Assembly (NCBI RefSeq): GCF_001677475.2
Contig: NZ_CP015229.1
Source of the DNA: Escherichia coli
GTDB lineage: Bacteria > Pseudomonadota > Gammaproteobacteria > Enterobacterales > Enterobacteriaceae
Length of the DNA: 64,000 nt
Strand: one strand, 5' to 3'
Positions 11,997-24,010 of the stretch are shown here, one piece after another. The translations under genes and the position numbers were made by a program. The stretch's first letter is position 1. Each line of letters starts with the position of its first letter. The notes under the pieces are model-generated. The model worked only from the letters and a program-made list of their open reading frames with translations, was not told the DNA's origin and searched no databases.

Positions 11997-12881
11997 ATGA
12001 GAACAGGATGTGAACCGACCCGATTTGGTAATGAAGCAAAGACCATCATCCAGGGTGATGCATTAACCGAACTTAAAAAGATCCCCGCCGAAAGTGTAGA
12101 TCTGATCTTTGCCGACCCACCGTATAACATCGGTAAAAATTTTGATGGTCTGATCGAAGCCTGGAAAGAAGATCTGTTTATCGACTGGCTGTTTGAAGTA
12201 ATTGCAGAGTGCCACCGCGTTCTGAAAAAGCAGGGCAGCATGTACATCATGAACAGCACGGAAAACATGCCCTTTATCGATCTCCAGTGCCGCAAGCTTT
12301 TTACCATCAAAAGTCGCATCGTCTGGTCATATGACAGTTCTGGAGTGCAGGCGAAAAAACACTACGGCTCCATGTACGAACCCATCCTGATGATGGTGAA
12401 AGACGCAAAGAACTACACGTTCAACGGTGATGCTATTCTGGTAGAAGCCAAAACCGGATCGCAGCGCGCGTTGATCGATTATCGCAAAAATCCTCCACAG
12501 CCTTACAATCATCAAAAAGTACCGGGTAACGTCTGGGATTTTCCGCGCGTGCGTTATTTGATGGATGAATATGAGAATCACCCGACGCAAAAACCGGAAG
12601 CCTTACTGAAACGCATTATTCTCGCCTCTTCCAACCCAGGCGATATCGTTCTCGACCCGTTTGCCGGTAGCTTTACTACCGGTGCCGTAGCCGTCGCCAG
12701 CGGGCGAAAATTCATTGGTATTGAGATCAACAGCGAGTACATCAAAATGGGGCTTCGACGGCTGGATGTCACGTCGCATTACTCTGCGGAAGAACTGGCG
12801 AAAGTGAAAAAAAGAAAGACCAGCAACCTGTCAAAACGAAGCAGGTTAAGCGAAGTTGACCCCGATCTCATTGCAAAGTAA
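11997..12881 (+). CDS. yhdJ: DNA adenine methyltransferase YhdJ
   Basis: 294 aa; DPPY motif (FADPPYNIG) of N6-adenine methyltransferases. Confidence 0.9.
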   Translation: MRTGCEPTRFGNEAKTIIQGDALTELKKIPAESVDLIFADPPYNIGKNFDGLIEAWKEDLFIDWLFEVIAECHRVLKKQGSMYIMNSTENMPFIDLQCRKLFTIKSRIVWSYDSSGVQAKKHYGSMYEPILMMVKDAKNYTFNGDAILVEAKTGSQRALIDYRKNPPQPYNHQKVPGNVWDFPRVRYLMDEYENHPTQKPEALLKRIILASSNPGDIVLDPFAGSFTTGAVAVASGRKFIGIEINSEYIKMGLRRLDVTSHYSAEELAKVKKRKTSNLSKRSRLSEVDPDLIAK

Positions 12882-12964
12882 AGGAAGTGTAAGCCTGGTT
12901 TTCAGATTATTCATTTCGTGTATATTTCCTGCCAGACTTGGTTAAACATGCACAGGCTCAGGTA

Positions 12965-13144
12965 ATGATTCGCAAGTATTGGTGGCTCGTCGTTTTCGCT
13001 GTCTTCGTTTTTCTGTTTGATACTTTACTGATGCAGTGGATTGAACTGCTGGCAACAGAAACAGACAAATGCCGCAATATGAACTCAGTTAATCCACTAA
13101 AACTGGTTAACTGTGACGAACTGAATTTTCAGGACAGAATGTGA
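12965..13144 (+). CDS. yhdU: Small membrane protein YhdU
   Basis: 59 aa from MIRKYWWLVVFAVFVFLF; ORF extends upstream to 12938. Confidence 0.6.
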   Translation: MIRKYWWLVVFAVFVFLFDTLLMQWIELLATETDKCRNMNSVNPLKLVNCDELNFQDRM

Positions 13145-13146
13145 AT

Positions 13147-13809
13147 TTATATGACACTTAATTCATTCGTTTGATGAATTAATTTCGTTATGTTTTCATC
13201 TGGCATGAACATTCTTAATACGTTATCGACCAGTGCGGGTGCTTGTTTATAAAGATCATAACCCGCCATATTCATTAACCAGTTTTGAACAATTCCGCTG
13301 AAGGCACCATCAATAATAATCATCACAACATCTAAATCGAGATTATTTGCTATACAACCTTGTTGCTGACATGCCTGCAATACTTCGTGGAGAGTCTGCG
13401 GATTAAAACCCATCTTTTCGCGTATCACTCCCTCTGCCAGCATCTCATCATTAAATTCACATTTGTGATATAAGATTTTCAGCAACGACTGCTGGCGGGG
13501 AATTTTGGCAATATATTGCAAGCCAACAATCAATTTTTCACGCAATTGCTGAAACGGGTCATGCTCTAACCCAGCAGTCAAGTGATCCTGGATTAACTCC
13601 CGCAATGAAGGCTGTTGCAACCACATCTCATTAAACAGTTGGGTCTTGTTCTCGAAGTGCCAGTAGATAGCGCCACGCGTAACGTTAGCGGCGTCGGCAA
13701 TGTCGTTGAGCGTCGTCTTGCTTACGCCATGCTGCGCAAACTGGGCGATGGCAGTTTCAATCAGTTCTTGCCGGGTCTTCAGGGCTTCAGCTTTGGTTCT
13801 TTTTGCCAT
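13147..13809 (-). CDS. acrS: TetR-family repressor of acrEF (AcrS/EnvR)
   Basis: 220 aa; N-terminal TetR HTH; divergent from acrE. Confidence 0.9.
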   Translation of the reverse strand: MAKRTKAEALKTRQELIETAIAQFAQHGVSKTTLNDIADAANVTRGAIYWHFENKTQLFNEMWLQQPSLRELIQDHLTAGLEHDPFQQLREKLIVGLQYIAKIPRQQSLLKILYHKCEFNDEMLAEGVIREKMGFNPQTLHEVLQACQQQGCIANNLDLDVVMIIIDGAFSGIVQNWLMNMAGYDLYKQAPALVDNVLRMFMPDENITKLIHQTNELSVI

Positions 13810-14206
13810 GATTAATTATTCAGGAAATAAATATATTCGACACAGGATGAGAAAATAGCGAAGGTTAATCTATCATCTAATGTGTATTTATACGAGAGGG
13901 TAACATTGAGTTGCTATAAATCGTCAAATAAATAATATATATTATTTACCTAAGATACATTCACTACATCAATATATATTTCAATTTACGAGGTTTTAAT
14001 TCTGCTTCTTTCAGCCCGCGTCAAAACAAAACATTAGAATATTAATCTTTTTTTGCGTTTATGTGCCTTAGACGCCAGTATTCATAACTATTTCTTACAT
14101 CGACGAATGATAATTTGTAGGATAGCGAACTGTATTTTTCTTTCTGCGAGTTAACGCGTTGCCTTTTCGGGTAAATAACGCGCTTTTGGTTTTTTGAGGA
14201 ATAGTA

Positions 14207-15364
14207 ATGACGAAACATGCCAGGTTTTTCCTCCTGCCCTCCTTTATCCTGTTCTCCGCTGCTTTAATCGCAGGCTGTAACGATAAGGGAGAAGAGAAAG
14301 CTCACGTCGGTGAACCGCAGGTTACCGTTCATGTTGTGAAAACGGCCCCGCTAGAAGTTAAGACTGAATTACCAGGCCGCACCAACGCTTTCCGTATAGC
14401 CGAAGTTCGCCCACAGGTTAGCGGGATCGTACTGAATCGCAATTTCACTGAAGGCAGCGATGTGCAAGCAGGCCAGTCCCTGTACCAGATCGATCCCGCG
14501 ACCTATCAGGCAAATTATGACAGCGCGAAAGGCGAACTGGCGAAAAGTGAAGCCGCCGCCGCCATCGCGCATTTGACGGTAAAACGTTACGTTCCGCTCG
14601 TGGGTACGAAATACATCAGTCAGCAGGAGTACGACCAGGCCATTGCTGATGCTCGCCAGGCCGATGCCGCCGTGATTGCCACAAAAGCCACGGTCGAAAG
14701 CGCTCGCATCAATCTCGCTTATACCAAAGTGACTGCGCCAATTAGCGGACGTATCGGCAAATCGACTGTGACCGAAGGCGCTCTTGTCACTAATGGGCAA
14801 ACGACTGAACTGGCGACTGTCCAGCAGCTCGATCCTATCTACGTTGATGTGACCCAATCCAGCAACGATTTTATGAGGCTGAAGCAATCCGTAGAGCAAG
14901 GAAATTTGCATAAGGAAAACGCCACCAGCAACGTAGAGTTGGTCATGGAAAACGGTCAAACCTATCCCCTGAAAGGTACGCTGCAATTCTCCGATGTGAC
15001 CGTTGATGAAAGCACCGGCTCCATAACCCTACGTGCCGTCTTCCCTAACCCGCAACATACGCTTTTACCTGGTATGTTTGTGCGCGCACGGATTGATGAA
15101 GGCGTCCAATCTGATGCCATTCTTATCCCGCAACAAGGCGTTAGCCGCACACCGCGTGGTGATGCAACCGTGCTGATTGTTAACGATAAAAGTCAGGTTG
15201 AAGCGCGCCCTGTCGTTGCCAGCCAGGCGATTGGCGATAAATGGTTGATTAGCGAAGGTCTGAAATCTGGCGATCAAGTCATTGTCAGCGGCCTGCAAAA
15301 AGCGCGTCCGGGAGAGCAGGTTAAAGCCACTACCGATATCCCCGCAGATACTGCATCGAAGTAA
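14207..15364 (+). CDS. acrE: RND efflux periplasmic adaptor AcrE
   Basis: 385 aa; lipoprotein signal LIAGC. Confidence 0.93.
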
Positions 15365-15375
15365 GGCAATCTGAC

Positions 15376-18300
15376 ATGGCAAACTTTTTTATTCGACGAC
15401 CGATATTTGCATGGGTGCTGGCCATTATTCTGATGATGGCGGGCGCACTGGCGATCCTACAATTGCCCGTCGCCCAGTATCCAACCATTGCGCCGCCCGC
15501 GGTTTCTGTTTCGGCAAACTATCCGGGCGCTGATGCGCAGACCGTGCAGGATACGGTGACGCAGGTTATCGAACAGAATATGAATGGTATCGATAACCTG
15601 ATGTATATGTCCTCCACCAGCGATTCCGCCGGTAGCGTGACAATTACCCTTACCTTCCAGTCCGGGACCGATCCAGATATCGCGCAAGTGCAAGTGCAGA
15701 ACAAACTCCAGCTCGCCACGCCGTTGCTGCCGCAGGAGGTTCAGCAGCAGGGGATCAGTGTTGAAAAGTCCAGTAGCAGCTATTTGATGGTGGCGGGCTT
15801 TGTCTCTGATAACCCAGGCACCACACAGGACGATATCTCGGACTATGTGGCCTCTAACGTTAAAGATACGCTTAGCCGTCTGAATGGCGTCGGTGACGTA
15901 CAGCTTTTCGGCGCACAGTATGCGATGCGTATCTGGCTGGACGCCGATCTGCTAAACAAATATAAACTGACACCGGTTGATGTGATTAACCAGTTGAAGG
16001 TACAGAACGATCAGATCGCTGCCGGACAGTTGGGCGGAACGCCAGCGTTACCAGGGCAACAGTTGAATGCCTCGATTATTGCTCAAACGCGGTTAAAAAA
16101 TCCGGAAGAATTCGGCAAAGTGACCCTGCGCGTAAACAGTGACGGCTCGGTGGTACGCCTGAAAGATGTCGCACGGGTTGAACTTGGCGGTGAAAACTAT
16201 AACGTTATCGCTCGCATCAACGGAAAACCGGCGGCAGGTCTGGGTATTAAGCTGGCAACCGGTGCGAACGCTCTCGATACCGCGAAATCCATTAAGGCAA
16301 AACTAGCGGAATTACAGCCATTCTTTCCGCAGGGAATGAAGGTTCTCTACCCTTATGACACCACACCATTCGTCCAGCTTTCTATTCACGAAGTGGTAAA
16401 AACGCTGTTCGAAGCCATTATGCTGGTGTTCCTGGTGATGTATCTGTTCTTGCAGAATATGCGAGCAACGCTGATCCCCACCATTGCGGTACCTGTGGTG
16501 TTGTTAGGGACGTTTGCCATCCTCGCCGCTTTTGGTTACTCCATCAACACACTAACGATGTTCGGGATGGTGCTTGCCATCGGGCTGCTCGTCGATGATG
16601 CGATAGTGGTGGTGGAGAACGTCGAGCGCGTGATGATGGAGGATAAGCTCCCGCCAAAAGAAGCGACGGAAAAATCAATGTCGCAAATCCAGGGCGCACT
16701 GGTGGGTATCGCGATGGTGCTGTCAGCGGTATTTATTCCAATGGCATTCTTCGGCGGTTCTACTGGGGCAATTTACCGCCAGTTCTCTATCACCATCGTT
16801 TCGGCAATGGCGCTTTCTGTTCTGGTGGCATTGATTCTTACCCCAGCGTTATGTGCAACACTGCTCAAACCCGTCTCTGCTGAGCATCACGAAAATAAGG
16901 GCGGTTTCTTCGGCTGGTTTAATACCACCTTCGATCATAGCGTTAACCACTACACCAACAGCGTCGGCAAAATCCTCGGTTCCACAGGACGATATTTACT
17001 GATCTATGCGCTGATTGTTGCAGGAATGGTGGTGTTGTTTTTACGTCTTCCGTCTTCCGTCTTACCTGAAGAGGATCAGGGTGTCTTTCTGACTATGATT
17101 CAGTTACCCGCTGGCGCGACGCAAGAGCGGACGCAAAAAGTGTTGGATCAAGTGACGGATTACTATCTGAAGAACGAGAAAGCGAACGTTGAAAGTGTTT
17201 TTACGGTTAACGGCTTTAGCTTCAGCGGCCAGGCACAAAACGCCGGTATGGCCTTCGTCAGTCTGAAACCGTGGGAAGAGCGTAATGGTGATGAAAACAG
17301 TGCGGAAGCGGTAATCCATCGTGCCAAAATGGAATTGGGCAAGATTCGCGACGGTTTTGTCATTCCATTCAATATGCCAGCCATTGTTGAACTGGGCACG
17401 GCAACGGGTTTCGACTTTGAGTTAATTGATCAGGCTGGGCTGGGTCACGATGCCCTAACCCAGGCCCGTAACCAGTTGCTTGGCATGGCGGCGCAACATC
17501 CTGCCAGCTTAGTCAGCGTGCGTCCTAATGGCCTGGAAGACACCGCGCAGTTTAAACTGGAAGTTGACCAGGAAAAGGCGCAAGCATTAGGTGTTTCACT
17601 TTCTGACATCAATCAGACCATTTCAACGGCGTTGGGTGGGACTTACGTTAACGACTTCATCGACCGTGGTCGCGTGAAAAAGGTGTATGTTCAGGCGGAT
17701 GCCAAATTCCGTATGCTGCCAGAAGATGTCGATAAACTTTATGTCCGCAGCGCCAACGGCGAAATGGTGCCATTCTCGGCCTTTACCACTTCACATTGGG
17801 TATATGGCTCTCCGCGGCTGGAACGCTACAACGGTCTGCCGTCAATGGAGATTCAGGGGGAAGCCGCGCCAGGAACCAGTTCCGGCGATGCCATGGCGTT
17901 GATGGAAAACCTTGCGTCAAAATTACCTGCGGGCATTGGTTATGACTGGACGGGTATGTCGTATCAGGAACGCTTATCGGGAAACCAGGCTCCCGCTCTG
18001 GTAGCAATTTCCTTTGTGGTTGTTTTCCTGTGCCTTGCTGCACTCTATGAAAGCTGGTCAATTCCTGTCTCGGTTATGTTGGTCGTGCCGTTAGGGATTG
18101 TCGGCGTGCTACTGGCGGCGACACTCTTTAATCAAAAAAATGACGTCTACTTTATGGTGGGCTTGCTAACGACAATTGGCTTGTCGGCTAAAAACGCTAT
18201 TTTGATTGTTGAGTTCGCTAAAGATCTCATGGAGAAAGAGGGTAAAGGTGTTGTTGAAGCGACACTAATGGCAGTACGTATGCGTCTGCGTCCTATCCTG

Positions 18301-18480
18301 ATGACCTCTCTCGCCTTTATTCTCGGCGTATTACCGCTAGCTATCAGTAACGGTGCCGGCAGTGGCGCGCAGAACGCAGTGGGTATCGGGGTAATGGGCG
18401 GGATGGTCTCTGCAACGTTGCTGGCAATCTTCTTCGTGCCGGTGTTCTTTGTGGTGATCCGCCGTTGCTTTAAAGGATAA
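15376..18480 (+). CDS. acrF: RND multidrug efflux pump AcrF
   Basis: 1034 aa; AcrB-like 12-TM transporter. Confidence 0.95.
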
Positions 18481-18491
18481 ATCAGAAACAT

Positions 18492-18520
18492 AAAGGCACT
18501 TTCGGGTGCCTTTATTATTT
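18492..18520 (+). terminator. Rho-independent terminator after acrF
   Basis: AAAGGCAC-TTTCGGG-TGCCTTT hairpin plus T-rich tail. Confidence 0.7.
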
Positions 18521-18732
18521 CCAGTGAAACCCATAAAAATTAATAAGATATTCCTCTACTCACTCTTTAAAAACTTTCTATAGTTCCCGCTCCCTTCACT
18601 ATTTTTACAATTCACATAATTTGTCATTATTCATTCCGCAAGATTTATAACCTCCAGTGATAAAATGGCATTCAGCTCGTTAATAAGAGAGTTAACTTAT
18701 TAAGCGTTAGCGTTTATTACTGAGGTAACACC

Positions 18733-18954
18733 ATGAAAAGATTAATTCCTGTGGCATTGCTCACCGCATTGCTGGCGGGCTGTGCTCACGATTCGCCCTG
18801 CGTTCCGGTTTATGACGATCAGGGTCGACTGGTTCACACTAATACCTGTATGAAAGGCACGACTCAGGATAACTGGGAAACGGCTGGGGCTATTGCTGGC
18901 GGGGCAGCAGCTGTTGCTGGCCTGACGATGGGGATCATCGCTCTGTCGAAATAA
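18733..18954 (+). CDS. yhdV: Small lipoprotein YhdV
   Basis: 73 aa; lipobox LLAGC. Confidence 0.8.
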   Translation: MKRLIPVALLTALLAGCAHDSPCVPVYDDQGRLVHTNTCMKGTTQDNWETAGAIAGGAAAVAGLTMGIIALSK

Positions 18955-19288
18955 CTGAACAGAGCGCGGAGTACCGCGCTCTGTTTAACGATACAGTATC
19001 TCACCATAAGATAAAATATTGCTATATTCTGCTGGGTAATTCCCTGCTGATTTAGCATGTTATATCGCGTTATTTCGCTGCTTTCGAAATAACGCATCAA
19101 TTTAATTTTCACACTTCCTACCAGAAATATACTCACGCTAACAATCATTATTCTGCTTAGTAAAAAACGCGTAAATATTTTGCGCCAAAATGTGGCGCAT
19201 GTTTCATTTTCGCACCATTGCGGGGCGCTGTTTTTATTATTTCCTGTCTACACTCAGCTTATTGCGACGCGAAATCGTGCGCAAAAGC

Positions 19289-19304
19289 TGGCACTACTTT
19301 TGCT
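19289..19304 (+). promoter_or_regulatory. Sigma54-type (-24/-12) promoter upstream of yhdW
   Basis: TGGCAC-N5-TTGCT matches GG-N10-GC consensus; ~80 bp upstream of yhdW ATG. Confidence 0.6.
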
Positions 19305-19384
19305 TATAAGAGGATGGCCACAGACAGGTAAAAGACGTTTCCCAAATGTCCTATAACGATAATTTTCGCCTCACAGGAAGCATT

Positions 19385-20410
19385 ATGAAAAAGATGATGA
19401 TAGCCACACTGGCTGCCGCCAGCGTGCTGCTTGCCGTTGCAAATCAGGCGCATGCTGGTGCGACGCTTGATGCCGTTCAGAAAAAAGGTTTTGTGCAATG
19501 CGGGATCAGTGATGGATTACCTGGGTTCTCTTATGCCGATGCTGACGGTAAGTTTTCAGGTATTGATGTAGATGTTTGTCGTGGTGTTGCGGCAGCTGTA
19601 TTTGGTGACGACACGAAAGTGAAATATACCCCGCTCACTGCAAAAGAACGCTTCACGGCTTTACAGTCAGGGGAGGTGGATTTGCTCTCCCGTAATACGA
19701 CCTGGACTTCATCTCGCGATGCCGGGATGGGAATGGCATTTACCGGCGTCACTTATTACGACGGCATTGGCTTCCTGACTCACGATAAAGCGGGACTAAA
19801 AAGCGCGAAAGAACTGGATGGCGCTACCGTCTGTATTCAGGCGGGTACTGATACCGAACTCAACGTTGCCGATTACTTTAAGGCAAACAATATGAAGTAC
19901 ACACCAGTGACTTTCGATCGCTCTGACGAATCAGCGAAGGCACTGGAATCTGGTCGCTGCGATACGCTGGCCTCGGATCAATCACAACTGTATGCCCTGC
20001 GCATCAAATTAAGCAACCCGGCTGAATGGATTGTCTTACCGGAAGTTATCTCCAAAGAACCGCTTGGGCCGGTAGTTCGTCGTGGCGATGATGAATGGTT
20101 CTCGATTGTACGCTGGACGCTTTTCGCCATGCTGAATGCTGAAGAGATGGGCATCAATTCCCAGAACGTCGATGAAAAAGCGGCTAATCCAGCAACGCCT
20201 GATATGGCACATCTGCTGGGTAAAGAAGGCGATTACGGCAAGGATCTGAAGCTGGATAATAAATGGGCTTACAACATCATCAAACAGGTGGGTAACTACT
20301 CGGAAATTTTTGAGCGTAACGTAGGTTCAGAAAGCCCGCTGAAAATTAAACGTGGGCAAAATAATCTCTGGAATAACGGCGGTATTCAGTACGCGCCGCC
20401 CGTGCGTTAA
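19385..20410 (+). CDS. yhdW: Amino-acid ABC transporter periplasmic binding protein
   Basis: 341 aa from MKKMMIATLAAASVLLAVANQAHA signal peptide; intact frame. Confidence 0.85.
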   Translation: MKKMMIATLAAASVLLAVANQAHAGATLDAVQKKGFVQCGISDGLPGFSYADADGKFSGIDVDVCRGVAAAVFGDDTKVKYTPLTAKERFTALQSGEVDLLSRNTTWTSSRDAGMGMAFTGVTYYDGIGFLTHDKAGLKSAKELDGATVCIQAGTDTELNVADYFKANNMKYTPVTFDRSDESAKALESGRCDTLASDQSQLYALRIKLSNPAEWIVLPEVISKEPLGPVVRRGDDEWFSIVRWTLFAMLNAEEMGINSQNVDEKAANPATPDMAHLLGKEGDYGKDLKLDNKWAYNIIKQVGNYSEIFERNVGSESPLKIKRGQNNLWNNGGIQYAPPVR

Positions 20411-20477
20411 GTCGGTGTGAGGTAACGAGCGTCGCTACGGCGGCGCTCTCTTCAGCGTTATGCTTTCCGAGGTTTCT

Positions 20478-21659
20478 ATGTCTCATCGCCGCTCAACCGT
20501 TAAAGGCTCACTCTCCTTTGCCAACCCTACGGTTCGCGCCTGGTTATTCCAGATCCTTGCCGTTGTTGCTGTTGTCGGCATTGTTGGTTGGTTATTTCAC
20601 AACACTGTAACGAATCTCAATAATCGTGGCATTACTTCAGGTTTTGCCTTTCTGGATCGCGGCGCTGGCTTCGGTATTGTCCAGCATTTGATCGATTACC
20701 AGCAGGGCGACACCTACGGACGCGTTTTCATTGTTGGCTTACTCAATACGCTACTGGTTTCTGCATTGTGTATTGTATTCGCTTCTGTTCTGGGCTTCTT
20801 TATCGGTCTGGCGCGACTTTCGGATAACTGGCTGCTACGAAAGCTTTCCACAATTTATATTGAGATCTTCCGTAATATTCCGCCGCTGCTGCAAATCTTC
20901 TTCTGGTACTTTGCCGTGTTGCGCAATTTGCCCGGACCACGCCAGGCTGTGAGCGCGTTTGATCTGGCCTTTTTGAGCAATCGTGGGCTTTATATTCCGT
21001 CACCACAGCTGGGAGACGGATTTATTGCGTTTATCCTGGCTGTTGTTATGGCTATAGTCCTTTCTGTTGGGCTATTCCGCTTTAATAAAACATACCAGAT
21101 AAAGACCGGACAGCTGCGCCGCACCTGGCCGATCGCCGCAGTGTTGATCATTGGTTTGCCTTTACTGGCGCAATGGCTTTTTGGCGCAGCACTACACTGG
21201 GATGTCCCAGCCCTACGAGGCTTTAACTTCCGCGGCGGGATGGTTTTAATTCCTGAACTGGCAGCCTTAACGCTGGCACTTTCGGTTTATACCTCTGCAT
21301 TTATCGCCGAGATTATCCGCGCTGGGATCCAGGCAGTGCCTTATGGTCAACATGAAGCTGCTCGGTCACTGGGATTACCCAACCCGGTTACGCTACGCCA
21401 GGTCATTATTCCCCAGGCACTGCGGGTGATTATTCCACCGTTAACCAGCCAGTATCTCAACATCGTCAAAAACTCCTCTCTTGCCGCCGCTATTGGCTAT
21501 CCCGATATGGTTTCGCTGTTTGCCGGCACCGTGCTGAACCAGACGGGGCAAGCCATCGAGACGATAGCCATGACCATGTCGGTCTATCTGATTATCAGCC
21601 TGACTATCTCGCTGCTGATGAATATCTATAACCGCCGCATCGCGATCGTTGAACGCTAA
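20478..21659 (+). CDS. yhdX: Amino-acid ABC transporter permease
   Basis: 393 aa multi-TM; ORF extends upstream to 20460. Confidence 0.85.
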   Translation: MSHRRSTVKGSLSFANPTVRAWLFQILAVVAVVGIVGWLFHNTVTNLNNRGITSGFAFLDRGAGFGIVQHLIDYQQGDTYGRVFIVGLLNTLLVSALCIVFASVLGFFIGLARLSDNWLLRKLSTIYIEIFRNIPPLLQIFFWYFAVLRNLPGPRQAVSAFDLAFLSNRGLYIPSPQLGDGFIAFILAVVMAIVLSVGLFRFNKTYQIKTGQLRRTWPIAAVLIIGLPLLAQWLFGAALHWDVPALRGFNFRGGMVLIPELAALTLALSVYTSAFIAEIIRAGIQAVPYGQHEAARSLGLPNPVTLRQVIIPQALRVIIPPLTSQYLNIVKNSSLAAAIGYPDMVSLFAGTVLNQTGQAIETIAMTMSVYLIISLTISLLMNIYNRRIAIVER

Positions 21660-21668
21660 GGAGTCATG

Positions 21669-22772
21669 ATGACAAAAGTATTGCTGTCTCATCCCCCGCG
21701 CCCGGCGAGCCATAACTCAAGCCGCGCTATGGTGTGGGTGCGAAAAAATCTGTTCTCCAGCTGGAGCAATAGCCTACTGACTATTGGCTGCATATGGTTG
21801 ATGTGGGAACTGATCCCACCGTTGCTGAACTGGGCATTTTTGCAGGCTAACTGGGTTGGCTCAACGCGTGCCGACTGCACAAAAGCCGGTGCCTGTTGGG
21901 TCTTCATCCACGAACGATTTGGTCAATTTATGTATGGGCTTTACCCACACGACCAACGCTGGCGATTTAACCTCGCATTACTGATTGGGCTTGTGTCGAT
22001 CGCACCAATGTTCTGGAAAATACTCCCGTATCGCGGTCGCTATATTGCGGTATGGGCGGTGATTTACCCACTGATTGTCTGGTGGCTGATGTATGGCGGG
22101 TTTCTTGGTCTTGAGCGGGTTGAAACCCGGCAATGGGGCGGGCTGACGCTAACTTTAATTATTGCATCAGTTGGGATTGCGGGGGCGCTGCCGTGGGGGA
22201 TCTTACTGGCGTTAGGTCGCCGCTCCCATATGCCGATTGTGCGTATCTTATCGGTCATTTTTATCGAGTTCTGGCGCGGTGTACCGCTGATTACCGTTCT
22301 GTTTATGTCTTCGGTCATGCTGCCGTTGTTTATGGCAGAAGGCACCAGTATCGACAAATTGATCCGCGCGCTGGTTGGCGTGATCCTGTTTCAGTCAGCA
22401 TATGTTGCGGAAGTCGTGCGAGGCGGATTACAGGCGCTGCCTAAAGGGCAATATGAAGCGGCAGAGTCGCTGGCGTTGGGTTACTGGAAAACCCAGGGGC
22501 TGGTTATTCTGCCACAGGCGTTGAAGCTGGTGATTCCTGGGCTGGTAAATACCATCATCGCACTTTTCAAAGATACCAGCCTGGTGATCATCATCGGGTT
22601 GTTCGATCTTTTCAGTAGCGTTCAGCAGGCAACCGTTGATCCCGCCTGGTTGGGTATGTCGACAGAAGGGTATGTTTTCGCCGCACTGATCTACTGGATC
22701 TTCTGTTTCAGCATGTCACGTTATAGCCAACATCTGGAAAAACGTTTTAACACCGGGCGTACACCGCATTGA
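21669..22772 (+). CDS. yhdY: Amino-acid ABC transporter permease
   Basis: 367 aa multi-TM. Confidence 0.85.
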
Positions 22773-22779
22773 GGACACT

Positions 22780-23538
22780 ATGAGCCAAATTTTACTGCAA
22801 CCTGCTAACGCGATGATTACGCTGGAAAACGTCAATAAATGGTATGGACAATTCCATGTTTTGAAAAATATAAATTTGACCGTGCAACCGGGAGAACGGA
22901 TCGTTCTGTGTGGCCCTTCTGGTTCCGGTAAATCGACAACCATTCGTTGTATTAATCATCTGGAAGAACATCAACAGGGACGGATCGTGGTGGATGGCAT
23001 CGAACTTAATGAAGATATCCGCAATATTGAGCGCGTCAGGCAGGAAGTGGGAATGGTCTTTCAGCATTTCAATCTCTTCCCTCATCTGACCGTTCTACAG
23101 AACTGTACCCTGGCACCGATTTGGGTACGCAAGATGCCTAAAAAAGAGGCTGAAGCTCTGGCGATGCATTACCTTGAGCGGGTGAGAATTGCCGAACATG
23201 CCCAGAAGTTTCCCGGACAGATTTCGGGTGGTCAGCAGCAACGCGTTGCCATAGCACGTTCACTTTGTATGAAACCAAAGATCATGCTATTTGATGAACC
23301 TACGTCGGCGCTCGATCCGGAGATGGTGAAAGAGGTGCTGGATACGATGATTGGACTGGCGCAATCGGGTATGACAATGTTGTGTGTAACGCATGAGATG
23401 GGGTTTGCGCGAACCGTCGCTGACCGGGTGATTTTTATGGAGCGTGGGGAAATAGTGGAGCAAGCTGCACCTGATGAATTTTTTGCGCATCCTAAATCAG
23501 AGCGTACGAGGGCATTTTTATCGCAGGTAATCCATTAA
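22780..23538 (+). CDS. yhdZ: Amino-acid ABC transporter ATP-binding protein
   Basis: 252 aa; Walker [10 protein letters not shown], signature LSGGQQQR. Confidence 0.92.
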
Positions 23539-23561
23539 TTGAATGTTAGTTCGAAAAGCAA

Positions 23562-23764
23562 AAAGGCCATCCTTTCGGATGGCCTTTCGCTTGATTTGAT
23601 GTCTGGCAGTTTATGGCGGCGTCCTGCCCGCCACCCTCCGGGCCGTTGCTTCGCAACGTTCAAATCCGCTCCCGGCGGATTTGTCCTACTCGGGAGAGTG
23701 TTCACCGACAAACAGCAGATAAAACAAAAGGCCCAGTCTTCCGACTGAGCCTTTTGTTTTATTT
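23562..23764 (-). terminator. rrnD distal terminator region (T1/T2-type hairpins)
   Basis: Two hairpins (AAAAGGCCATCC..GGATGGCCTTT and AAGGCCCAGTC..GACTGAGCCTTT) matching rrn terminator sequence as recalled. Confidence 0.7.
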
Positions 23765-23765
23765 G

Positions 23766-23885
23766 ATGTCTGGCAGTTCCCTACTCTCGCATGGGGAGAC
23801 CCCACACTACCATCGGCGCTACGGCGTTTCACTTCTGAGTTCGGCATGGGGTCAGGTGGGACCACCGCGCTACTGCCGCCAGACA
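23766..23885 (-). rRNA. rrfF: 5S ribosomal RNA, distal copy
   Basis: 120 nt, reverse complement of 5S sequence; two compensatory differences from rrfD. Confidence 0.93.
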
Positions 23886-23922
23886 AATTCTTTTCTAATC
23901 TGCCGAACTTTAACCTAAAAAG

Positions 23923-23998
23923 TGGTGCTGATACCCAGAGTCGAACTGGGGACCTCACCCTTACCAAGGGTGCGCTCTACCAACTGAGCCATATCAGC
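23923..23998 (-). tRNA. thrV: tRNA-Thr
   Basis: Reverse complement GCTGATATGGCTCAGTTGGTAGAGCGCACCCTTGGTAAGGGTGAGGTCCCCAGTTCGACTCTGGGTATCAGCACCA. Confidence 0.93.
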
Positions 23999-24010
23999 AC
24001 GCTAAATTTG

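What the first reader, a model, noticed from the sequence alone, without database searches (positions are those of the whole stretch)
19385..20410. yhdW reading frame is intact here
The binding-protein gene of the yhdWXYZ transporter reads as one uninterrupted 341-codon frame with a typical signal peptide. My recollection, which I cannot verify here, is that the K-12 reference annotates yhdW as a frameshifted pseudogene. If so, this strain retains a functional amino-acid uptake system.
Basis: partly seen in the sequence, partly recalled or inferred. Interest (0 to 1): 0.3.

Follow-up and report, generated by a model that had tools for sequence, protein, structure and literature searches.

The report
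Intact yhdW amino-acid binding-protein gene
This E. coli strain has an unbroken copy of yhdW, the binding-protein gene of an amino-acid transporter that is broken by a one-base deletion in laboratory K-12; the unbroken form is the normal state in E. coli and is already described.

Summary
Window 19385-20410 (+) is an uninterrupted 341-codon gene with a Sec-type signal peptide. Its protein is identical to RefSeq WP_000738579.1. It is followed by intact yhdX, yhdY and yhdZ.

K-12 MG1655 annotates the orthologue as a frameshifted pseudogene of 1025 nt. The lesion is loss of one A (window 19452, gene nt 68, codon His23), two codons before the predicted signal-peptidase site. It leaves a 78-aa product.

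The intact state is not special. Allele-specific probes found the intact sequence at the K-12 deletion site in 5,040 of 5,426 complete E. coli genomes. The K-12 deletion was in 355, and all but one of the 60 records listed are K-12 derivatives or laboratory strains. pN/pS is about 0.02, so the gene is under purifying selection.

The frameshift is already published (Borde et al. 2026 preprint; McCully et al. 2020 preprint). So are the NtrC/sigma-54 control and the asparagine binding of the Citrobacter orthologue.

One side result: sister assemblies of the window's own clone differ by a single base that creates Gln38-stop in yhdW. Controls show this is sporadic gene loss, not a hotspot.

Verdict: real, ordinary, already known.

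The parts
19385..20410 (+). yhdW CDS, 341 aa, periplasmic substrate-binding protein (SBP_bac_3), intact
   Evidence: The protein is identical to WP_000738579.1. It is 58% identical to PDB 4z9n over 319 aligned residues, E=5e-122.
19385..19456 (+). Predicted Sec signal peptide (codons 1-24, cleavage AHA|GA)
   Evidence: Sequence inspection and hydropathy. The 4z9n alignment starts at residue 22.
19452..19452 (+). The A (gene nt 68, codon His23 CAT) that is deleted in K-12; present here
   Evidence: alignment. One search found the deletion allele in 355 genomes and one search found the intact allele in 5,040. Borde et al. 2026 report the same lesion.
19496..19498 (+). Codon Gln38 (CAA); C19496T gives TAA in sister assemblies of the same clone and in several other lineages; wild type here
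19375..19380 (+). Shine-Dalgarno AGGAAG for yhdW
   Evidence: Read directly from the sequence.
19289..19304 (+). Sigma-54 (-24/-12) promoter TGGCACTACTTTTGCT, known as yhdWp
   Evidence: It is the only exact match in 64 kb, against 0.08 expected. It is identical in K-12. PMC7045595 lists yhdWp as a sigma-54 promoter with a perfect consensus.
19181..19225 (+). Two inverted repeats (19181-19199 TGCGCCA-N5-TGGCGCA; 19208-19225), candidate enhancer-binding-protein (NtrC/ZraR) sites
   Evidence: One search reports the hairpins and one search shows they are invariant in three strains. Their role as activator sites is inferred. An NtrC ChIP peak is assigned to yhdWXYZ in PMC4066584.
20478..21659 (+). 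yhdX, permease, 393 aa, intact
   Evidence: It has no amino-acid differences from K-12.
21669..22772 (+). yhdY, permease, 367 aa, intact; F100 and Y121 differ from all three strains compared
22780..23538 (+). yhdZ, ABC ATPase, 252 aa, intact (Walker [10 protein letters not shown], signature SGGQQQR, Walker [12 protein letters not shown])
18958..18985 (.). 12-bp-stem hairpin just after yhdV, a likely terminator that insulates yhdW from upstream transcription

Best explanation
Window 19385-20410 is the ancestral, intact allele of E. coli yhdW. It encodes the secreted substrate-binding protein of the four-gene YhdWXYZ type I ABC importer, which belongs to the polar amino acid family and is of the AapJQMP/BztABCD type.

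Proposed mechanism:
- Under nitrogen limitation, and possibly under ZraSR signalling, an enhancer-binding activator bound upstream drives the sigma-54 promoter at 19289-19304.
- Pre-YhdW is exported by Sec and cleaved after Ala24.
- Mature YhdW binds a polar amino acid in the periplasm, most likely asparagine.
- It delivers the ligand to the YhdX/YhdY permease pair, which is powered by the YhdZ ATPase.

In K-12, loss of one A in codon 23 separates the signal peptide from an otherwise undamaged mature domain, so no binding protein is made.

Shown here: the intact frame, the exact K-12 lesion, the allele frequencies, purifying selection, the domain and operon architecture, and the promoter motif. 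Taken from the literature: NtrC binding, sigma-54 dependence, and asparagine binding in the Citrobacter rodentium orthologue. Inferred: that this strain's system actually imports asparagine or other polar amino acids.
For: Intact frame and RefSeq-concordant boundaries. K-12 is annotated as frameshifted. The lesion maps to a deleted A at nt 68, giving a 78-aa product, exactly as Borde et al. 2026 report. The K-12 allele is in 355 genomes and the undeleted sequence at that site in 5,040 of 5,426. yhdW pN/pS is 0.018-0.023, and the frame-restored K-12 mature domain differs by only V64I. SBP_bac_3, two BPD_transp_1 permeases carrying the HEQRo_perm_3TM domain above cut-off, and an ABC_tran ATPase are all present. 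PDB 4z9n matches at E=5e-122 and 58% identity. There is a unique exact sigma-54 motif, and window 19167-19346 is identical to K-12. An NtrC ChIP peak lies at yhdWXYZ (PMC4066584), and yhdWp is a sigma-54 promoter (PMC7045595). C. rodentium YhdW binds Asn with Kd 0.37 uM, and the system contributes to gut colonisation (and the abstract).
Against: There is no functional test for any E. coli YhdW. [quoted passage not shown] I did not measure sequence identity between this YhdW and the C. rodentium protein. No NCBIfam equivalog model reaches its cut-off, so substrate cannot be assigned from sequence. YhdY F100 and Y121 and YhdZ E221 differ from all three strains compared, with unknown effect. Null alleles arise sporadically in nature, including in this clone, so the gene is dispensable under some conditions.
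Confidence: 0.85

Rival explanations
1. The frame is intact but the system is cryptic or functionally redundant in this strain. It would be an open reading frame preserved by recency or by weak selection, contributing nothing measurable to amino-acid uptake.
For: [quoted passage not shown] Sister isolates of this clone carry Q38*, and other lineages carry Q32*, Q38* or Q94*, so loss is tolerated.
Against: pN/pS of about 0.02 over 13-17 synonymous differences argues for long-term constraint. Of 5,426 complete genomes, 5,040 carry the undeleted sequence at the K-12 deletion site, and none of 5,393 carries Q38*. The C. rodentium mutant colonises mice less well.
Confidence: 0.12
2. The K-12 'pseudogene' is a reference-sequence error, so there is no real difference between this strain and K-12.
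For: None found. Single-base indels are a common kind of sequencing error in principle.
Against: The identical deletion allele was found in 355 assemblies. Those listed include MG1655, W3110, BW25113, DH1, DH5alpha, MC4100, C600 derivatives, JM109 and NCM3722. The site is not a homopolymer (GGCGCATGCTGG). Borde et al. 2026 report the deletion independently.
Confidence: 0.01
3. The intact allele here is a secondary reversion or a recombinational repair of a K-12-like pseudogene, rather than the ancestral state.
For: The locus is a recombination mosaic. Its identity to any one strain varies from 95% to 99.7% gene by gene.
Against: All but one of the 60 deletion-allele records listed are K-12 derivatives or laboratory strains, and the exception (EcN_Sk) is unexplained. 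Intact alleles occur on all diverse haplotypes sampled. The window's haplotype differs from K-12 at 18 other sites in the gene.
Confidence: 0.02

Closest known systems
E. coli K-12 yhdW pseudogene (locus tag SH05_RS20590 in NZ_CP010438.1)
   Same: It is the orthologous locus with the same flanking genes (acrEF-yhdV upstream, yhdXYZ and an rRNA operon downstream). Identity is 98.1% at nucleotide level. The sigma-54 promoter and the 180 bp around it are identical.
   Different: K-12 lacks the A at gene nt 68, so translation shifts frame at codon 23 and stops after 78 aa. The window has the A and reads through to 341 aa. There are 18 further substitutions, 17 of them synonymous, plus V64I.
Intact E. 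coli YhdW, RefSeq WP_000738579.1 (for example strain FDAARGOS_497)
   Same: The amino-acid sequence is identical, with 3 synonymous nucleotide differences.
   Different: There is no difference at protein level. The window carries a synonymous T at 19459 that none of the 5,426 complete genomes matched across the 54-mer. The same T is present in draft assemblies of the same clone (L008, L009 and L012).
Citrobacter rodentium YhdWXYZ (Borde et al. 2026, bioRxiv 10.64898/2026.05.04.722672)
   Same: It is a complete four-gene system with an intact binding protein. The authors describe it as conserved between E. coli and Citrobacter.
   Different: It is the only member with biochemistry (Asn, Kd 0.37 uM) and in vivo data. 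I did not obtain its sequence, so its identity to the window protein was not measured.
BztABCD (Rhodobacter capsulatus) and AapJQMP (Rhizobium leguminosarum), general or polar L-amino-acid ABC transporters; PDB 4z9n (Brucella ovis binding protein)
   Same: The architecture is the same: a binding protein of about 340 aa, two unusually long permeases (393 and 367 aa here) and one ATPase. Identity to 4z9n is 58% across the whole mature protein. Borde et al. cite nitrogen-limitation control for Aap.
   Different: Those systems transport Glu/Gln/Asp/Asn or a broad range of L-amino acids, according to the literature cited. The enterobacterial protein tested so far binds only Asn. The BztA label for 4z9n comes from the preprint, not from the PDB depositors.

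Membership tests
Bacterial extracellular solute-binding proteins, family 3 (Pfam PF00497) | Domain match above Pfam's gathering score | tested here: met
   59.7 bits against a cut-off of 26.4, residues 38-254.
Bacterial extracellular solute-binding proteins, family 3 (Pfam PF00497) | N-terminal export signal | tested here: met
   KK n-region, hydrophobic core and AHA|G cleavage motif, by inspection and hydropathy. No SignalP-type tool was available.
Polar amino acid ABC importer of AapJQMP/BztABCD type (TC 3.A.1.3) | Four-gene operon: binding protein, two permeases, one ATPase | tested here: met
   yhdW-X-Y-Z lie on the + strand with gaps of 67, 9 and 7 nt.
Polar amino acid ABC importer of AapJQMP/BztABCD type (TC 3.A.1.3) | Long permeases (about 370-400 aa) carrying the HEQRo_perm_3TM domain and an EAA loop | tested here: met
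   TIGR01726 scores 60.4 and 69.6 bits against a cut-off of 42.2. Lengths are 393 and 367 aa. EAARSLG and EAAESLA are visible in the translations.
Polar amino acid ABC importer of AapJQMP/BztABCD type (TC 3.A.1.3) | Binding protein homologous to BztA/AapJ over its full length | tested here: met
   4z9n matches at E=5e-122 and 58% identity, residues 22-341. The assignment of 4z9n to BztA rests on Borde et al..
Polar amino acid ABC importer of AapJQMP/BztABCD type (TC 3.A.1.3) | Transport of Glu/Gln/Asp/Asn or broad L-amino acids | not testable with these tools
   The only evidence is Asn binding by the C. rodentium orthologue in the literature.
Lysine/arginine/ornithine-binding subfamily (TIGR01096) | Score at or above the curated cut-off | tested here: not met
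   198.8 bits against a cut-off of 256.35. It is not filed here.
K-12-type yhdW pseudogene allele | Deletion of A at gene nt 68 | tested here: not met
   The A is present at window 19452.
NtrC/sigma-54 nitrogen-scavenging regulon | -24 GG / -12 GC promoter upstream of the operon | tested here: met
   TGGCAC-N5-TTGCT lies at 19289-19304, ending 81 nt upstream of the ATG. It is the only exact match in the window, against 0.08 expected.
NtrC/sigma-54 nitrogen-scavenging regulon | Activator (NtrC) binding and induction under nitrogen limitation | not testable with these tools
   A ChIP-seq peak exists in K-12 (PMC4066584). The corresponding 180 bp are identical here.

The most novel reading that the evidence does not exclude
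The presence or absence of YhdW may act as a recurrent evolutionary switch. With the binding protein, YhdXYZ would import asparagine or other polar amino acids for nitrogen scavenging and gut colonisation. Without it, the remaining YhdXYZ would work in the binding-protein-independent 'antibiotic homeostasis' mode proposed for K-12. On this reading, the sporadic null alleles seen in nature are selected rather than neutral decay. These include the K-12 deletion, Q32*, Q38*, Q94* and IS-mediated loss, and the Q38* sub-lineage within this window's own clone.
Probability: 0.08. Interest if true: 0.45.

Novelty: already known. Interest (0 to 1): 0.08.

Why it matters
It matters mainly as a caution. 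K-12 is atypical at this locus, so K-12 knockouts and K-12-based models say little about what YhdWXYZ does in natural E. coli. Strains like this one, with all four genes intact, are the right background for testing the transporter's substrate and its proposed role in nitrogen scavenging and gut colonisation. Nothing here changes current understanding.

Tried and rejected
1. First intact-junction probe. I took it from the window itself. It undercounted, at 4,801 genomes, because the window has a private synonymous T at 19459. I replaced it with a consensus probe, which gave 5,040.

2. Q38* as a mutational hotspot or a selected site. The same C19496T occurs on at least five local haplotypes, which first suggested this. 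I rejected it for two reasons. The SNP-specific probe found 0 of 5,393 complete genomes, and the positive control worked. The comparator one-step nonsense products Q32* and Q94* are about as common in the large assembly collection (95 and 74 blocks against 104) and are real TAG alleles. Many of the 'truncated products' are simply contigs that end there (L017-L019, L024-L029). Q38* is still about five times commoner on long contigs. This is partly explained by clonal copies and was not resolved.

3. K-12 frameshift as a sequencing error. Rejected.

4. Membership of the LAO, GlnH, GltI or TcyJ equivalog families. All scores fall below the cut-offs.

5. A literature search for the draft-assembly accessions of the window's clone found nothing, so the strain remains unnamed.

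6. I did not run the large protein-database searches, structure prediction or collection scans. PDB, RefSeq annotation and the literature already settled the question.

Full report
**Observation.** The window holds an uninterrupted reading frame from ATG 19385 to the TAA that ends at 20410, which is 341 codons plus stop. The mechanical ORF list extends it to an upstream ATG at 19346. The 19385 start is the better one: it is preceded by AGGAAG at 19375-19380, and it matches the RefSeq CDS boundaries in the closest complete genome (L002 4186-5211 maps onto window 19385-20410). The N-terminus MKKMMIATLAAASVLLAVANQAHA|GATLD has the three regions of a Sec signal peptide. The closest solved structure, 4z9n, aligns from residue 22 to the C-terminus at E=5e-122 and 58% identity. 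Pfam assigns SBP_bac_3.

**The K-12 comparison.** In K-12 MG1655 (NZ_CP010438.1) RefSeq annotates the orthologue as a frameshifted pseudogene of 1025 nt. A global alignment shows one gap: the A at window 19452, which is gene nt 68 in the CAT codon of His23. There are 18 further substitutions. The deletion lies two codons before the predicted signal-peptidase site. K-12 therefore makes a 78-aa product consisting of the signal peptide followed by out-of-frame sequence. The whole mature domain stays open in another frame and differs from the window's protein only by V64I. Borde et al. (bioRxiv 2026) describe the same lesion: 'deletion at nucleotide 68', frameshift from amino acid 23, 78-aa product. 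A 2020 preprint also calls the K-12 gene non-functional because of a frameshift.

**Which allele is unusual.** I used 53-nt probes with 26 nt on each side of the variable base. Megablast needs an exact 28-mer, so it can only seed if the probe and the genome agree at that base.
- The K-12 deletion probe hit 355 of 5,426 complete E. coli genomes. All but one of the 60 rows listed are K-12 derivatives or laboratory strains. The exception is the oddly labelled EcN_Sk.
- The intact probe hit 5,040 genomes.
- Together these account for 5,395 of the 5,420 genomes with any match to the locus.
- A few genomes have gross lesions. Strain EC-07, for example, has an IS1-associated deletion that removes everything from acrS to yhdW.

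The intact gene is therefore the normal state in E. coli, and K-12 is the exception.

**Selection.** yhdW pN/pS is 0.018 against frame-restored K-12 and 0.023 against strain AST215. There are 13-17 synonymous changes and one non-synonymous change in each comparison. The window's protein is identical to WP_000738579.1. yhdX, yhdY and yhdZ are full length and also constrained, with pN/pS between 0 and 0.16. The permease EAA loops and the ATPase Walker A, signature and Walker B motifs are all visible in the translations.

**What it is and how it probably works.** The four genes form a type I ABC importer of the polar amino acid family. Both permeases are unusually long (393 and 367 aa) and carry the HEQRo_perm_3TM domain above its cut-off. 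This is the AapJQMP/BztABCD architecture. No NCBIfam equivalog model reaches its cut-off, so the sequence alone does not give a substrate.

Upstream, TGGCACTACTTTTGCT at 19289-19304 is the only exact -24/-12 sigma-54 motif in 64 kb, against 0.08 expected. Window 19167-19346 is identical to K-12. The literature supplies the rest:
- yhdWp is a sigma-54 promoter with a perfect consensus (PMC7045595).
- NtrC ChIP-seq gives a peak at yhdWXYZ (PMC4066584).
- Borde et al. report ZraSR control.
- The C. rodentium YhdW binds asparagine with Kd 0.37 uM, and the system aids early gut colonisation. [quoted passage not shown]

The best-supported mechanism is a nitrogen-limitation-induced, binding-protein-dependent uptake of asparagine or related polar amino acids. 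The architecture and promoter are shown here. The regulation and ligand come from the literature on orthologues. Actual transport in this strain is inferred.

**Where the window comes from.** No complete E. coli genome is closer than 98.3% over 12 kb. Identity to any one strain varies by gene from 95% to 99.7%, which indicates a recombination mosaic. An exact-protein lookup with YhdY found draft assemblies of the same clone. L009 (GCA_018683295.1) is 100% identical to the window over 6,337 nt.

**A side result.** The sister assembly L008 (GCA_018682865.1) differs from the window by a single base in 6,659 nt. L012 (ERR3309123, plus six similar places not shown) differs by a single base over its first 3.1 kb. 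That base is C19496T, which turns Gln38 (CAA) into TAA in yhdW. The same change occurs on at least four other local haplotypes, which first suggested a hotspot or selection.

Controls argue against that. None of 5,393 complete genomes carries the T, and the positive control worked. The comparator nonsense products Q32* and Q94* are about as frequent in the large collection (95 and 74 blocks against 104) and are real TAG alleles. Many entries are only contig ends. The sober reading is that short-lived null alleles of yhdW arise sporadically in a very large sample. Long-term selection keeps the gene.

**Verdict.** It is a useful reminder that K-12 is unrepresentative at this locus.

Noticed in passing
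window 19496 (codon 38 of yhdW); loci L008, L012, L010, L011, L013-L016: Sister assemblies of the window's own clone differ from it by one base, C19496T, which makes Gln38-stop in yhdW. The same nonsense change occurs on at least four other haplotypes. Comparator nonsense alleles (Q32*, Q94*) are similarly frequent, and no complete genome carries Q38*, so it looks like sporadic loss rather than a hotspot. Q38* is still about five times commoner on long contigs than the comparators.
   Followed up: yes
window 1-7719: This segment is absent from K-12 at this position, where accBC lies directly upstream of yhdT. It carries a sugar ABC transporter, two sugar kinases and a tagatose-bisphosphate-family class II aldolase. 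It is present at full length in only 1,419 of 5,426 complete E. coli genomes, for example IAI39.
   Followed up: partly
window 12000-24000: The window is at least 1.7% diverged from every complete E. coli genome over 12 kb. It is a gene-by-gene mosaic: yhdW is 99.7% identical to FDAARGOS_497 but yhdZ only 95.4%, while yhdX is closest to K-12. The lineage is represented only by draft assemblies (GCA_018683295.1, GCA_018682865.1), and its name was not found.
   Followed up: partly
window 23539-23760 (yhdZ to 5S rRNA spacer); L001 and L002: The spacer between yhdZ and the first 5S rRNA gene differs in length among strains: 231 bp in K-12 and AST215, but 63 bp in FDAARGOS_497. The downstream rRNA operon has two 5S copies flanking tRNA-Thr.
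   Followed up: no
NZ_CP172017.1 (strain EcN_Sk), locus L005: This 5.05-Mb genome is labelled as a Nissle-type stool isolate. It carries the K-12-type yhdW deletion and K-12-identical YhdY, plus a frameshifted acrF. That suggests a hybrid, a mislabelled strain or an assembly problem.
   Followed up: no
window 21669-23538 (yhdY, yhdZ): YhdY F100 and Y121 and YhdZ E221 differ from all three strains compared (I100, H121, D221). YhdY with these residues is present in at least 52 blocks of the public assembly collection. Their functional effect is unknown.
   Followed up: no
E. coli genome searches: One record classed as a plasmid carries a copy of the yhdW region. A few genomes have two places.
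   Followed up: no
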